A stretch of 64,000 nucleotides of DNA from Escherichia coli (GTDB taxonomy: Bacteria; Pseudomonadota; Gammaproteobacteria; Enterobacterales; Enterobacteriaceae), in the NCBI RefSeq assembly GCF_003334335.1, contig NZ_QOWQ01000022.1; one strand, 5' to 3'. The notes under the pieces were generated by a model that saw only the letters and a program-made list of their open reading frames with translations, was not told where the DNA came from and made no database searches. Both the position numbers and the translations under genes were made by a program. This document shows, one piece after another, positions 54,010 through 59,194 of this stretch. Position 1 is the first letter of the stretch; every line of letters starts with the position of its first letter.

Positions 54010-55020
54010 ATGTACTACCCCTTCGTTCGTAAAGCCCTTTTCCAGCTCGATCCAGAGCGCGCTCATGAGTTTACTTTTCAGCAATTACGCCGTATTACAG
54101 GAACGCCGTTTGAAGCACTGGTGCGGCAGAAAGTGCCTGCGAAACCTGTTAACTGCATGGGCCTGACGTTTAAAAATCCGCTTGGTCTGGCAGCCGGTCT
54201 TGATAAAGACGGGGAGTGCATTGACGCGTTAGGCGCGATGGGATTTGGATCGATCGAGATCGGTACCGTCACGCCACGTCCACAGCCAGGTAATGACAAG
54301 CCGCGTCTCTTTCGTCTGGTAGATGCCGAAGGTTTGATCAACCGTATGGGCTTTAATAATCTTGGCGTTGATAACCTCGTAGAGAACGTAAAAAAGGCCC
54401 ATTATGACGGCGTCCTGGGTATTAACATCGGCAAAAATAAAGATACGCCAGTGGAGCAGGGCAAAGATGACTATCTGATTTGTATGGAAAAAATCTATGC
54501 CTATGCGGGATATATCGCCATCAATATTTCATCGCCGAATACCCCAGGATTACGCACGCTGCAATATGGTGAAGCGCTGGATGATCTCTTAACCGCGATT
54601 AAAAATAAGCAAAATGATTTGCAAGCGATGCACCATAAATATGTGCCGATCGCAGTGAAGATCGCGCCGGATCTTTCTGAAGAAGAATTGATCCAGGTTG
54701 CCGATAGTTTAGTTCGCCATAATATTGATGGCGTTATTGCAACCAATACCACACTCGATCGTTCTCTTGTTCAGGGAATGAAAAATTGCGATCAAACCGG
54801 TGGCTTAAGTGGTCGTCCGCTTCAGTTAAAAAGCACCGAAATTATTCGCCGCTTGTCACTGGAATTAAACGGTCGCTTACCGATCATCGGTGTTGGCGGC
54901 ATCGACTCGGTTATCGCTGCGCGTGAAAAGATTGCTGCGGGTGCCTCACTGGTGCAAATTTATTCTGGTTTTATTTTTAAAGGTCCGCCGCTGATTAAAG
55001 AAATCGTTACCCATATCTAA
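54010..55020 (+). CDS. pyrD: dihydroorotate dehydrogenase (quinone), 336 aa
   Basis: ORF 53983..55020(+) trimmed to [23 protein letters not shown] at 54001-54005. Confidence 0.95.
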
Positions 55021-55193
55021 TTATTTCTTCGAATTCCTCTTTATAAGATAATCAGGGCTTTATTTTCAGCCCTGGTTGTTTTATATTCATCTCTGTTGCT
55101 TATTTAGACATTTTGTACTTTTATTGTTGAGGTTATTAAGCGAAGCGACAATGGATTGTGTTGCTGCGGTTTTATAGGGTAGGGGAGAGGCAG

Positions 55194-55736
55194 ATGCGAA
55201 TTAAACCAGACGATAACTGGCGTTGGTATTACGATGAAGAGCACGATCGAATGATGCTCGATTTAGCCAATGGTATGCTATTTCGCTCACGTTTTGCGCG
55301 CAAGATGTTGACTCCAGATGCCTTTTCTCCCGCAGGCTTTTGCGTTGACGACGCCGCGCTCTATTTCTCTTTTGAAGAAAAGTGCCGCGATTTTAATTTA
55401 TCTAAAGAACAAAAAGCCGAACTGGTGCTGAATGCACTGGTAGCAATTCGCTATCTCAAACCGCAAATGCCGAAAAGCTGGCATTTTGTTTCCCATGGTG
55501 AAATGTGGGTGCCCATGCCGGGCGATGCGGCCTGCGTTTGGTTGAGCGATACTCACGAGCAGGTCAATTTGCTGGTCGTTGAATCTGGCGAAAATGCCGC
55601 ACTATGCCTGCTGGCACAACCCTGCGTTGTTATTGAGGGTCGCGCGATGCAGTTGGGCGACGCCATTAAAATCATGAACGACAGGCTGAAACCGCAGGTT
55701 AATGTTGACAGCTTCAGCCTCGAACAGGCAGTCTAA
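55194..55736 (+). CDS. zapC: FtsZ-associated cell division protein ZapC, 180 aa
   Basis: ORF 55158..55736(+) trimmed to [18 protein letters not shown]. Confidence 0.88.
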
Positions 55737-56842
55737 CGCGCCAACTTAAGTGCAGTCTTCGGTACACAGCTACAGCAAAGAATGGTGCCATCATCGCCCA
55801 TTGCTGATTTTTTCAGCGGCGTGACTTCGCCTTCTAAAAGCTGAACACGGCAACTTCCACAAATGCCCGCGCGGCAAGAATAAGGGATACGAATTCCCTG
55901 ATTTTCTAATTGCTCCAGCAACACCTGTTGGTTATTTCCACGAAATGCCTGTCCCTGCCAGTCAATATCTACATTTGCGTCCGGTTGTTGCGTGATGTTG
56001 GCGGTATCATCAGCGGCAGCTGCGCCGTAAATTTTTGCCGGAGCCGTTGCCAGAATTTCCACCTCATCGCCAACGCGAATCACGCCGCTATTACGGGCAA
56101 TTAAATTCTGACCAAAATCGACATCGCCGTTATCCTGGGCAGTGCGGAAAGATTGCAATGTTTTTAATGGTTCGCCTGCCGGATGTTTTTGCCCTTTTTC
56201 TGGGCTGACGGTGGTGAAAATACAGCGGCTACAAGGTTTAACCACATCAAACACCACATCACCAATGCGAATCACTTTCCAGCGATCTTCTTCCCAGGCT
56301 GACGCGCCGGAAACCACCAGATTGGGGCGGAATTGCTCCATTTTTACACTGGCCGGACAACGTTGTTGGAGATCACGTAACGAGGCTTCGTTAGCAAGAA
56401 GGTAAGGATAGCCATCAGCAAATGACAGAGGTACAGTGTTGTGGCGTTTCACGCGCCGGGTCATTTGTGGCCCCACCCAGCGTAATTGCACTTCGCGGGA
56501 GAAAAATCCACTTAGCCATTTGTTGATCGCGTCTGGCGCAATTCGCGCGGTAAAATGTGTGCCCCAAACTTCGGTTGGTGCGTCTTGTGTGGCGAAATCA
56601 GCAAAACGAACATATGCGCTACTGCCATCTGGTGCGGTGAGATGCAAGCCATCATGCACAGGTGAAGGAGTAAACCGTACCATCTGGGGAAACTGGCGAG
56701 CGGTAATAAACGTACCGTCAGGTTCCGTGATCATAAAGATGCGATCGAAGGCCAGACCACTGACATCTGCCAGAGCATGTGTAAGACCAATGCCGCGCAT
56801 CGATTTAACAGGATGAATAAAAAGCCGGATTAATGTCGCCAC
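55733..56842 (-). CDS. ycbX: MOSC-domain protein with C-terminal 2Fe-2S ferredoxin-like domain, 369 aa
   Basis: ORF 55733..56842(-); C-terminal CRAGICGSC...CCSC cysteine cluster. Confidence 0.9.
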
Positions 56843-57085
56843 GGTGCGGTCCTCAAATGAAAATAAGCCCTCAACTTTATGACATGACGCGCTTATTAGC
56901 TATAATGCGCAACAATTTTCTTAGCGCCTGTCCCATTAGGCTATTTTATTTGTCAGTTTGGCCCTGGGTTATGCTCGAAATCCTCACGTACTTGTGTACG
57001 CTCCGGTTTCTCCGCGCTGTCCATGTCCAGACTGACTGCAACAATTACGCCTACTGCGGTAGGCTCTTAGAGTAAAAGTGACGAT

Positions 57086-59194
57086 ATGAATTCTCTGTTT
57101 GCCAGTACGGCCCGTGGGCTGGAAGAGCTGTTAAAAACTGAACTGGAAAACCTGGGGGCCGTTGAATGCCAGGTGGTTCAGGGTGGGGTCCATTTCAAGG
57201 GCGACACACGGCTTGTTTACCAGAGCCTGATGTGGAGCCGCCTGGCCTCGCGTATTATGTTGCCGCTGGGCGAGTGTAAGGTTTACAGCGATTTAGACCT
57301 CTATCTCGGTGTTCAGGCGATCAACTGGACAGAGATGTTTAATCCTGGCGCGACCTTCGCTGTCCACTTCAGTGGTTTGAATGACACCATCCGCAACAGT
57401 CAGTACGGCGCGATGAAAGTGAAAGACGCGATCGTCGATGCTTTCACGCGGAAAAATCTGCCGCGTCCAAATGTTGATCGCGATGCGCCGGATATCCGCG
57501 TTAACGTCTGGCTGCATAAAGAAACCGCCAGTATCGCTCTTGATCTGAGTGGTGATGGTTTACATCTGCGTGGCTATCGCGATCGTGCTGGTATTGCGCC
57601 GATCAAAGAAACCCTGGCAGCCGCTATTGTGATGCGATCCGGCTGGCAGCCAGGAACACCGCTGCTCGATCCGATGTGTGGTTCCGGTACGTTGCTGATT
57701 GAAGCAGCGATGCTGGCGACCGATCGCGCACCTGGCTTGCACCGTGGGCGTTGGGGCTTTAGCGGCTGGGCGCAGCATGATGAAGCTATCTGGCAGGAAG
57801 TGAAAGCGGAAGCGCAAACTCGCGCCCGTAAAGGCCTGGCTGAGTATAGCTCTCATTTTTACGGTTCGGACAGCGACGCACGGGTGATTCAACGTGCGCG
57901 CACTAACGCCCGTCTTGCGGGGATTGGTGAACTGATCACCTTTGAGGTGAAAGATGTCGCGCAACTGACCAATCCGCTGCCGAAAGGGCCGTACGGTACA
58001 GTGTTGAGCAACCCGCCATACGGTGAACGTCTGGACAGCGAACCGGCGCTGATAGCGCTGCATAGTCTGCTGGGCCGAATCATGAAAAACCAGTTCGGTG
58101 GCTGGAATCTCTCTTTGTTTAGTGCCTCGCCGGATCTGCTCAGCTGCCTGCAGCTGCGTGCAGACAAACAGTACAAGGCGAAAAACGGCCCGCTGGACTG
58201 CGTACAGAAAAATTACCACGTTGCCGAAAGCACTCCAGACAGCAAACCGGCGATGGTAGCGGAAGACTACGCTAACCGCCTGCGTAAGAACCTCAAAAAA
58301 TTCGAGAAGTGGGCTCGCCAGGAAGGGATTGAATGTTACCGCCTGTATGACGCCGATCTGCCGGAATATAACGTTGCCGTTGACCGTTATGCCGACTGGG
58401 TGGTGGTGCAGGAGTATGCGCCGCCAAAAACTATTGATGCGCACAAAGCGCGTCAGCGTCTGTTCGATATTATCGCTGCAACCATTTCGGTACTGGGGAT
58501 TGCGCCAAACAAACTGGTGCTGAAAACCCGTGAACGCCAGAAGGGCAAAAATCAGTACCAGAAACTGGGCGAGAAGGGCGAGTTTCTCGAAGTCACCGAA
58601 TATAACGCTCACTTGTGGGTGAACCTGACGGATTACCTCGATACCGGTCTGTTCCTCGATCACCGTATCGCCCGTCGTATGCTCGGTCAGATGAGCAAAG
58701 GCAAAGATTTCCTCAACCTGTTCTCTTATACCGGCAGCGCCACCGTGCACGCGGGATTAGGCGGTGCACGCAGCACCACCACCGTGGATATGTCGCGTAC
58801 TTATCTGGAGTGGGCAGAACGCAACCTGCGTCTGAATGGCCTGACCGGGCGTGCGCATCGCCTGATTCAGGCCGATTGCCTGGCGTGGCTGCGTGAGGCA
58901 AATGAACAGTTCGATCTGATCTTTATCGATCCGCCAACCTTCTCTAACTCAAAACGAATGGAAGATGCGTTTGATGTTCAGCGCGATCATCTGGCGCTGA
59001 TGAAAGATTTGAAACGTCTGCTGCGTGCTGGTGGGACGATCATGTTCTCGAACAACAAACGTGGCTTCCGTATGGATCTCGACGGCCTGGCAAAACTGGG
59101 ACTGAAAGCACAAGAAATTACGCAAAAAACGCTCTCCCAGGATTTCGCCCGTAACCGCCAGATCCACAACTGCTGGCTGATTACCGCAGCCTGA
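57086..59194 (+). CDS. rlmL: bifunctional 23S rRNA methyltransferase (m2G2445/m7G2069), 702 aa
   Basis: ORF 57086..59194(+); two methyltransferase modules (NPPYGER motif). Confidence 0.95.

What the first reader, a model, noticed from the sequence alone, without database searches (positions are those of the whole stretch)
55733..56842. MOSC protein with a fused C-terminal 2Fe-2S ferredoxin-like cysteine cluster
The ycbX product ends with CRAGICGSC...CCSC, a plant-type ferredoxin cysteine pattern, fused to a MOSC (molybdenum cofactor sulfurase C-terminal) domain. This suggests a self-contained electron-transfer and reductase module, in line with its reported role in detoxifying N-hydroxylated bases.
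Basis: partly seen in the sequence, partly recalled or inferred. Interest (0 to 1): 0.15.

Follow-up and report, generated by a model that had tools for sequence, protein, structure and literature searches.

The report
E. coli YcbX, a known molybdoenzyme
This is the ordinary, already characterised E. coli gene ycbX, whose product joins a molybdenum-cofactor N-reductase to a small 2Fe-2S ferredoxin domain and protects the cell against mutagenic N-hydroxylated bases.

Summary
Window 55733-56842 (minus strand) is a 369-aa ORF whose product is 100% identical to E. coli K-12 YcbX (b0947). It is present in all 5426 complete E. coli genomes searched.

Pfam finds MOSC_N (1-116, 1.7e-33), MOSC (139-262, 1.7e-23) and Fer2 (294-362, 4.1e-15). 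The quoted cysteines are real: C323-x4-C328-x2-C331, then C356-C357-S-C359. Across 45 homologues that carry this domain, C323, C328, C331 and C357 are invariant, while C356 and C359 vary. So the cluster motif is CX4CX2CX25C, and "CCSC" supplies one ligand. The MOSC cysteine C207 aligns with the Mo ligand C273 of human mARC1.

The predicted structure (pLDDT 90.5) matches mARC1 plus a plant-type ferredoxin, joined by a disordered tether.

The protein has no flavin or NAD(P)H domain, and published genetics make the flavoprotein CysJ its electron donor. Only longer relatives of about 600-660 aa fuse FAD and NAD domains as well.

Everything here is already published, so interest is low. Side observations: a polymorphic 146-nt MITE-like insertion in the ycbX-rlmL spacer; a 4-nt overlap of the convergent zapC and ycbX ends; and homologues that lost the Mo-ligand cysteine but keep the Fe-S cysteines.

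The parts
55733..56842 (-). ycbX coding sequence (369 codons plus TAG stop; GTG start at 56842-56840)
   Evidence: ORF list and translation. Product 100% identical to MG1655 YcbX b0947. Annotated as ycbX in RefSeq genomes.
56850..56854 (-). Shine-Dalgarno-like GAGGA, 7 nt upstream of the GTG start
   Evidence: Read directly from the sequence. Function inferred.
56495..56842 (-). MOSC_N beta-barrel domain (aa 1-116)
   Evidence: Pfam PF03476, E 1.7e-33. Aligns with the N-terminal part of human mARC1.
56057..56428 (-). MOSC domain (aa 139-262), the molybdenum-cofactor catalytic domain
   Evidence: Pfam PF03473, E 1.7e-23. mARC1 6fw2 matches aa 92-265 at E 3.8e-25. Foldseek to mARC1: E 7.5e-23, TMq 0.66.
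56222..56233 (-). CSRC motif (C204-S-R-C207). C207 is the predicted cysteine ligand of Mo.
   Evidence: Aligned residue for residue with mARC1 ACSRCILTT. The second Cys is mARC1 C273 by my count on the mARC1 sequence, and PMC10637980 names C273 as the ligand candidate. C204 is conserved in 131 and C207 in 132 of 137 homologues.
55964..56056 (-). Ala/Asp/Gln-rich linker (aa 263-293) between the MOSC and Fer2 domains
   Evidence: No Pfam domain. AlphaFold pLDDT below 50 for aa 275-284. Poorly conserved and of variable length in alignments.
55757..55963 (-). Fer2 domain (aa 294-362), plant-type [2Fe-2S] ferredoxin fold
   Evidence: Pfam PF00111, E 4.1e-15. NCBIfam YfaE 5.9e-16 and fdx_plant 4.1e-11, both below their family cut-offs. 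PDB ferredoxins about 4e-9. Foldseek TMt 0.63-0.74 to plant and cyanobacterial ferredoxins.
55850..55876 (-). C323-RAGI-C328-GS-C331: the first three predicted cluster ligands (CX4CX2C)
   Evidence: Read from the sequence. Invariant in 46 of 46 Fer2-bearing sequences and in the 19-sequence alignment A2.
55772..55774 (-). C357, the fourth predicted cluster ligand (middle Cys of CCSC, which spans 55766-55777)
   Evidence: Invariant in 46 of 46. The flanking C356 (Ala in 29) and C359 (Cys in 22, otherwise Ser/Thr/Ala) vary.

Best explanation
The ORF is E. coli ycbX. Its product is a cytoplasmic two-module molybdoenzyme. The N-terminal MOSC_N plus MOSC part (aa 1-262) binds the molybdopterin form of the molybdenum cofactor, with C207 as the protein ligand to Mo. 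It carries out two-electron reduction of N-hydroxylated compounds, for example 6-N-hydroxylaminopurine to adenine. The C-terminal plant-type ferredoxin domain (aa 294-362) holds one [2Fe-2S] cluster on C323, C328, C331 and C357, and is joined to the catalytic part by a flexible tether. Electrons run from NADPH to the CysJ flavins (a separate protein), then to the YcbX [2Fe-2S] cluster, then to Mo, then to the substrate. The ferredoxin domain plays the part that cytochrome b5 plays for eukaryotic mARC. Shown here: identity with the characterised protein, domain content, conservation of the ligand cysteines, fold, and absence of a flavin/NAD(P)H domain. Taken from the literature: HAP reduction, dependence on Moco, the CysJ requirement, and the Mo coordination seen by XAS. 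Inferred: which four cysteines bind the cluster, that C207 is the Mo ligand, and that electron transfer is intramolecular through a mobile ferredoxin domain.
For: The product is 100% identical to K-12 YcbX. The gene is present and annotated as ycbX in 5426 of 5426 complete E. coli genomes. Pfam finds MOSC_N, MOSC and Fer2, all highly significant. The closest solved structure is human mARC1 (3.2e-32), with the CSRC motif aligned; the next matches are plant-type ferredoxins. The AlphaFold model has pLDDT 90.5, matches mARC1 (E 7.5e-23) and ferredoxins (TMt about 0.7), and has a disordered linker at aa 275-284. C323, C328, C331 and C357 are invariant in 46 of 46 sequences, and C204/C207 are 95-96% conserved in 137. 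Canonical CX4CX2CX29C spacing is the commonest form among homologues (29 of 46); the E. coli form is CX4CX2CX25C. Literature: YcbX and YiiM reduce HAP to adenine, CysJ is the specific electron donor for YcbX, and YcbX is an iron-sulfur protein (PMC3831636). The flow CysJ to Fer-domain cluster to Moco to substrate is proposed in PMC5818509. The spinach-type ferredoxin domain standing in for CYB5, the XAS of the Mo site and catalytic electrochemistry are reviewed in PMC10637980.
Against: Nothing found here contradicts it. Four limits remain. No YcbX structure exists in the PDB copy searched, so the ligand assignments rest on homology and conservation. The set used to score the Fer2 cysteines was chosen by presence of a CX4CX2C...C motif, which makes the 100% partly circular. 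Even so, all 45 homologues of 320 aa or more that end in a ferredoxin-like extension have the motif, and the 6 without it carry other extensions. Whether HAP is the physiological substrate is questioned in the literature (PMC10637980).
Confidence: 0.95

Rival explanations
1. Strict reading of the first reader: YcbX is a fully self-contained reductase that takes electrons directly from NAD(P)H and needs no partner protein.
For: The Fe-S relay and the catalytic Mo domain are on one chain. Some relatives do carry the whole chain in one polypeptide (P0010: MOSC_N, MOSC, FAD_binding_6, NAD_binding_1, Fer2).
Against: The window protein has no flavin or NAD(P)H-binding domain; only MOSC_N, MOSC and Fer2 are found, with a 31-residue linker. 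Published genetics identify CysJ as the specific electron donor (PMC3831636, PMC5818509, PMC10637980).
Confidence: 0.03
2. The C-terminal domain is a degenerate ferredoxin remnant that no longer binds a cluster and serves only as a docking or structural domain.
For: The spacing before the fourth cysteine is 25 residues rather than the canonical 29. NCBIfam ferredoxin models score below their curated cut-offs.
Against: The four ligand positions are invariant across homologues down to about 35% identity, along with G326, G329 and L355. The fold is confidently predicted as a plant-type ferredoxin. YcbX is described as an iron-sulfur protein with a [2Fe-2S] ferredoxin domain (PMC3831636, PMC10637980). 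The low NCBIfam scores are expected, because those models are equivalogs for other whole proteins.
Confidence: 0.02
3. YcbX acts mainly as a sulfur-carrier or Moco-handling protein, as was first guessed for MOSC domains from their homology to the C-terminus of Moco sulfurase. On this view N-reduction is a side activity and not its main job.
For: The MOSC domain is named after Moco sulfurase. The review notes that even the MOS C-terminal domain shows N-reductive activity in vitro, and that the physiological relevance of HAP is questioned (PMC10637980).
Against: There is no NifS-like domain. A fused ferredoxin domain and a dedicated flavin-reductase partner point to redox catalysis. ycbX mutants are HAP-hypersensitive, and the protein reduces HAP to adenine (PMC3831636). 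Electrochemically driven catalysis has been reported (cited in PMC10637980).
Confidence: 0.03

Closest known systems
E. coli K-12 YcbX (b0947, NP_415467.1, UniProt P75863), 6-N-hydroxylaminopurine resistance protein
   Same: Identical protein, 369 of 369 residues. Same neighbours: pyrD, zapC and ycbX, then rlmL and uup.
   Different: Nothing at the protein level. The window is not K-12 itself at the DNA level (99.9% to a K-12 derivative, 100% to strains EC416 and GDSC2BY4G over 1.8 kb).
Eukaryotic mARC1/mARC2 (mitochondrial amidoxime-reducing component; PDB 6fw2)
   Same: MOSC_N plus MOSC catalytic core. The CSRC motif carrying the Mo-ligand cysteine is aligned. Both reduce N-hydroxylated compounds including HAP (PMC10637980).
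   Different: mARC has an N-terminal membrane anchor and no Fe-S domain, and receives electrons from separate cytochrome b5 and NADH-cytochrome b5 reductase. YcbX has a fused [2Fe-2S] ferredoxin domain and uses CysJ. Identity is about 21% over the structural alignment.
Long YcbX-type proteins with fused flavin reductase (e.g. Vibrio VCA0924 and VPA0411 as cited in PMC5818509; representative P0010, 641 aa)
   Same: MOSC_N, MOSC and a C-terminal Fer2 with the same four cysteines; 43% identity over the MOSC part.
   Different: They insert FAD_binding_6 and NAD_binding_1 domains between MOSC and Fer2, so they hold the whole electron chain. The window protein has only a 31-residue linker there.
E. 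coli YiiM (second HAP-resistance MOSC protein; Geobacillus YiiM PDB 5yhh)
   Same: MOSC domain, Moco-dependent HAP reduction (PMC3831636, PMC5818509). A weak structural match was found (rank 50).
   Different: YiiM has a C-terminal helical bundle in place of MOSC_N and has no ferredoxin domain. Its proposed donor is Fre, not CysJ (PMC3831636).
Plant-type [2Fe-2S] ferredoxins and E. coli YfaE
   Same: Beta-grasp Fer2 fold, CX4CX2C...C ligand set.
   Different: Those are free-standing proteins of about 85-100 aa with X29 before the fourth Cys (plant type). Here the domain is fused, has X25, and has two extra non-conserved cysteines beside the fourth ligand.

Membership tests
YcbX family (MOSC_N-MOSC-Fer2 N-reductases) | MOSC_N beta-barrel domain at the N-terminus | tested here: met
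   PF03476, aa 1-116, E 1.7e-33.
YcbX family (MOSC_N-MOSC-Fer2 N-reductases) | MOSC domain with the conserved cysteine that ligates Mo | tested here: met
   PF03473, aa 139-262, E 1.7e-23. C207 is aligned with the second Cys of mARC1 CSRC and is conserved in 132 of 137 homologues.
YcbX family (MOSC_N-MOSC-Fer2 N-reductases) | C-terminal [2Fe-2S] ferredoxin domain with four cysteine ligands | tested here: met
   PF00111, aa 294-362, E 4.1e-15. C323, C328, C331 and C357 are invariant.
YcbX family (MOSC_N-MOSC-Fer2 N-reductases) | Sequence identity with the experimentally characterised E. coli protein | tested here: met
   369 of 369 identical to MG1655 b0947.
YcbX family (MOSC_N-MOSC-Fer2 N-reductases) | Binds Mo-MPT and reduces N-hydroxylated bases; mutant is HAP-hypersensitive; depends on CysJ | not testable with these tools
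   Literature only: PMC3831636, PMC5818509, PMC10637980, citing Kozmin et al. 2008 and 2010. The two primary papers were not held in the library.
Plant-type [2Fe-2S] ferredoxin (Pfam Fer2, PF00111) | CX4CX2CX29C ligand spacing | tested here: inconclusive
   The CX4CX2C part is met exactly. The last spacer is 25 residues, not 29, a 4-residue shorter loop shared by 6 of 21 short-architecture sequences. X29 is the commonest form among homologues.
Plant-type [2Fe-2S] ferredoxin (Pfam Fer2, PF00111) | Beta-grasp ferredoxin fold | tested here: met
   Foldseek hits to plant and cyanobacterial ferredoxins: probability 1.00, TMt 0.63-0.74, rmsd 2.2-3.4 over about 87-94 columns. The model has pLDDT 90.5.
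Single-chain MOSC-flavin reductase-ferredoxin proteins (Vibrio type) | FAD-binding and NAD(P)H-binding domains between MOSC and Fer2 | tested here: not met
   The 369-aa protein has no FAD_binding_6 or NAD_binding_1 hit. Both are found in the 641-aa relative P0010.
Eukaryotic mARC | MOSC_N-MOSC core only, N-terminal membrane or targeting segment, separate cytochrome b5 partner | tested here: not met
   The core is homologous. However, the window protein starts directly with the MOSC_N domain at residue 1 and carries a fused Fer2 domain. It is a homologue, not a member.
Moco sulfurase (MOS/ABA3) | N-terminal NifS-like cysteine desulfurase domain | tested here: not met
   No aminotransferase class V / NifS domain in the Pfam scan.

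The most novel reading that the evidence does not exclude
The enterobacterial YcbX ferredoxin domain differs from the family norm. It has a loop 4 residues shorter before the fourth ligand (X25, not X29) and two extra, non-conserved cysteines (C356, C359) beside the ligand C357. The evidence does not exclude that these tune the cluster potential, allow ligand swapping or make the cluster redox- or NO-sensitive. It also does not exclude that the real physiological substrate of the CysJ-YcbX pair is something other than HAP, such as hydroxylamine or another N-oxygenated metabolite tied to sulfur and nitrogen assimilation.
Probability: 0.1. Interest if true: 0.3.

Novelty: already known. Interest (0 to 1): 0.05.

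Why it matters
It matters little as a discovery. The gene, its three-domain architecture, its Moco and Fe-S dependence, its CysJ partner and its base-analogue detoxification role have all been in the literature since 2008-2010 and are in standard annotation. The value of this check is to close the item. The exact ligand set can be stated as C323, C328, C331 and C357, plus C207 for Mo. The one over-statement ("self-contained") is corrected. YcbX remains of interest as the bacterial model for human mARC, a drug-metabolising enzyme and liver-disease target. No experimental YcbX structure was found in the PDB copy searched.

Tried and rejected
- I tried to read the primary papers (Kozmin 2008 PMC2740630, Kozmin 2010 PMC2849459, Yang 2023 PMC10544827). 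They are not held, so their content is cited second-hand from PMC3831636, PMC5818509 and PMC10637980.
- I looked for model coordinates to measure the Fe-S to Mo distance. None were exposed in /data.
- The Rfam scan of 54900-57400 gave only a sub-threshold sX9 hit (25.8 bits against gathering 44, E 0.057). I treat it as chance; it falls inside the MITE-like element.
- I tried to name the intergenic repeat through two literature searches. Nothing useful came back, and the 'RSA' label is memory only.
- NCBIfam has no YcbX-specific hit above cut-off. The best hits are ferredoxin-domain equivalogs for other proteins, all below their thresholds, so I did not use them for naming.
- I considered that the 'CCSC' triplet might provide alternative or additional ligands. 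Conservation rejects this as a family feature.
- The cluster look-up gave no organism names for the Mo-Cys-less homologues.

Full report
**Observation**

The window carries a 369-codon ORF on the minus strand at exactly 55733-56842. It has a GTG start, a TAG stop and a GAGGA Shine-Dalgarno-like motif 7 nt upstream. The C-terminus reads ...YSC(323)RAGIC(328)GSC(331)[25 protein letters not shown](356)C(357)SC(359)[10 protein letters not shown].

**Identity**

A 1.8-kb stretch around the gene matches all 5426 complete E. coli genomes in the collection. There it is annotated 'ycbX: 6-N-hydroxylaminopurine resistance protein YcbX', flanked by zapC and rlmKL. The translated product is 369/369 identical to MG1655 YcbX (b0947, NP_415467.1) and 98% identical to the APEC O1 allele. 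This is the experimentally studied protein itself.

**Domains**

| Domain | Pfam | Residues | E-value |
|---|---|---|---|
| MOSC_N | PF03476 | 1-116 | 1.7e-33 |
| MOSC | PF03473 | 139-262 | 1.7e-23 |
| Fer2 | PF00111 | 294-362 | 4.1e-15 |

No flavin or NAD(P)H domain was found.

- In the PDB, the best sequence relatives are the human mARC1 crystal constructs (3.2e-32). Their ...ACSRCILTTVDPDTG... aligns with ...[16 protein letters not shown]... in YcbX.
- The next matches are plant and cyanobacterial [2Fe-2S] ferredoxins (about 4e-9) over aa 300-367. No YcbX entry exists in that copy.
- NCBIfam gives only sub-cut-off ferredoxin-domain hits (YfaE 5.9e-16, fdx_plant 4.1e-11).

**Conservation**

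A full HMMER search of 1.84 billion representatives found 9218 relatives at E of 0.001 or better, and 1315 at 1e-30 or better. Among the best 150, three architectures stand out:

| Length | Architecture | Count |
|---|---|---|
| 240-320 aa | MOSC_N-MOSC only | about 85 |
| 320-450 aa | With C-terminal CX4CX2C...C (the E. coli type) | 20 |
| 560 aa or more | With the motif | 25 |

P0010, one of the long form, has MOSC_N, MOSC, FAD_binding_6, NAD_binding_1 and Fer2.

- In the 46 Fer2-bearing sequences, C323, C328, C331 and C357 are invariant, together with L309, G326 and L355.
- C356 is Ala in 29 sequences. C359 is Cys in 22 and otherwise Ser, Thr or Ala.
- An independent 19-sequence alignment gives the same invariant set.
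- That set was picked by presence of the motif, so the 100% is partly circular. However, every homologue of 320 aa or more that ends in a ferredoxin-like extension has the motif. The six without it carry unrelated N- or C-terminal extensions.
- Spacing is canonical CX4CX2CX29C in 29 of 46. E. coli and five others have X25, a loop 4 residues shorter.
- In the MOSC part, C204 and C207 are conserved in 131 and 132 of 137 sequences.
- C207 corresponds to mARC1 C273, by my count from the mARC1 C-terminus on the alignment. The review PMC10637980 discusses C273 as the Mo ligand.

**Structure**

AlphaFold2 on alignment A2 gives mean pLDDT 90.5 and pTM 0.76. The only segment below 50 is aa 275-284, in the linker. 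Foldseek against the PDB returns mARC1 (E 7.5e-23, TMq 0.66) for the N-terminal two-thirds. For the last roughly 87-94 residues it returns dozens of plant-type ferredoxins (probability 1.00, TMt 0.63-0.74).

**Mechanism**

From the literature:
- YcbX and YiiM are the two Moco-dependent activities that reduce 6-N-hydroxylaminopurine to adenine, using a non-MGD (MPT) form of Moco.
- CysJ flavin reductase is the specific electron donor for YcbX, and YcbX is an iron-sulfur protein (PMC3831636).
- The proposed flow is NADPH, then the CysJ flavin, then the [2Fe-2S] cluster of the YcbX Fer domain, then Moco, then the substrate. Vibrio proteins fuse all these domains (PMC5818509).
[quoted passage not shown] XAS shows a sulfite-oxidase-like Mo site with one cysteine ligand (PMC10637980).

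My results fit each step that sequence can address. The assignments of C323, C328, C331 and C357 to the cluster and of C207 to Mo, and the idea of a tethered mobile ferredoxin domain, are inferences.

Observation and interpretation are both right. The only over-statement is 'self-contained'. The chain holds the relay and the catalytic site but not the NAD(P)H-oxidising flavin module, which is the separate protein CysJ. Novelty: already known. Interest: low.

**Side observations**

1. **Insertion in the ycbX-rlmL spacer.**
   - The spacer is 243 bp here but 97 bp in APEC O1. The difference is a 146-nt insertion (56925-57070) with TCTTAG at both edges.
   - It has imperfect terminal inverted repeats and folds into one long hairpin (-51.1 kcal/mol, z -4.0).
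   - It occurs 2-4 times per genome at megablast stringency, and 1235 of 5426 genomes lack a full-length match at this locus.
   - Another copy (87% identity) lies between qseE and qseG.
   - It sits between a near-consensus promoter-like site (56879-56906, 11/12) and the rlmL start codon.
2. **Overlapping gene ends.** The convergent zapC and ycbX ends overlap by 4 nt. The pair is listed as a convergent excludon in PMC12288877. The adjacency persists in a locus whose YcbX is only 37% identical.
3. **Homologues without the Mo-ligand cysteine.** Three homologues (P0004, P0020, P0027) have lost this cysteine but keep all four Fe-S cysteines.
4. **Natural disruption.** In strain EC06 an IS1A insertion separates the Fer2 cysteine region from the rest of ycbX.

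Noticed in passing
window 56925-57070 (ycbX-rlmL intergenic region); second copy at L003 about 2501-2642: A 146-nt MITE-like insertion with TCTTAG at both edges, imperfect terminal inverted repeats and a single long hairpin fold (z -4.0). It is absent from APEC O1 (97-bp spacer against 243 bp here). It occurs 2-4 times per E. coli genome, with another copy between qseE and qseG. It probably lies in the rlmL leader, downstream of a promoter-like site at 56879-56906. No Rfam family reaches threshold. It may be the old 'RSA' repeat, but that is from memory only.
   Followed up: partly
window 55733-55736: The convergent genes zapC (+) and ycbX (-) overlap by 4 nt at their stop codons (CTAA). No terminator can therefore sit between them, and their transcripts must overlap. 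The pair is listed as a convergent excludon in PMC12288877. The zapC-ycbX convergent adjacency is conserved in a distant locus (L005, YcbX 37% identical).
   Followed up: partly
homologues P0004, P0020, P0027; locus L005 5001-6146: These YcbX homologues (37-45% identical, from unnamed Logan/ENA assemblies; L005 has GC about 0.37-0.41) have replaced the Mo-ligand cysteine (C207 to Y or F). P0020 and P0027 have also degraded the surrounding MOSC motif. All three keep the four Fer2 cysteines. They are either decaying genes or proteins reused as ferredoxins.
   Followed up: partly
L006 (E. coli EC06, NZ_CM169496.1) 534-2420: A natural IS1A insertion inside ycbX splits off the last roughly 52 codons, which hold the Fer2 cysteine region. 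Both pieces are annotated as pseudogenes, making this a ready-made natural test of the need for the ferredoxin domain.
   Followed up: partly
window 56986-57051 (+): A weak, sub-threshold Rfam match to Xanthomonas sRNA sX9 (25.8 bits against gathering 44, E 0.057), inside the MITE-like element. Most likely a chance match to its hairpin.
   Followed up: no
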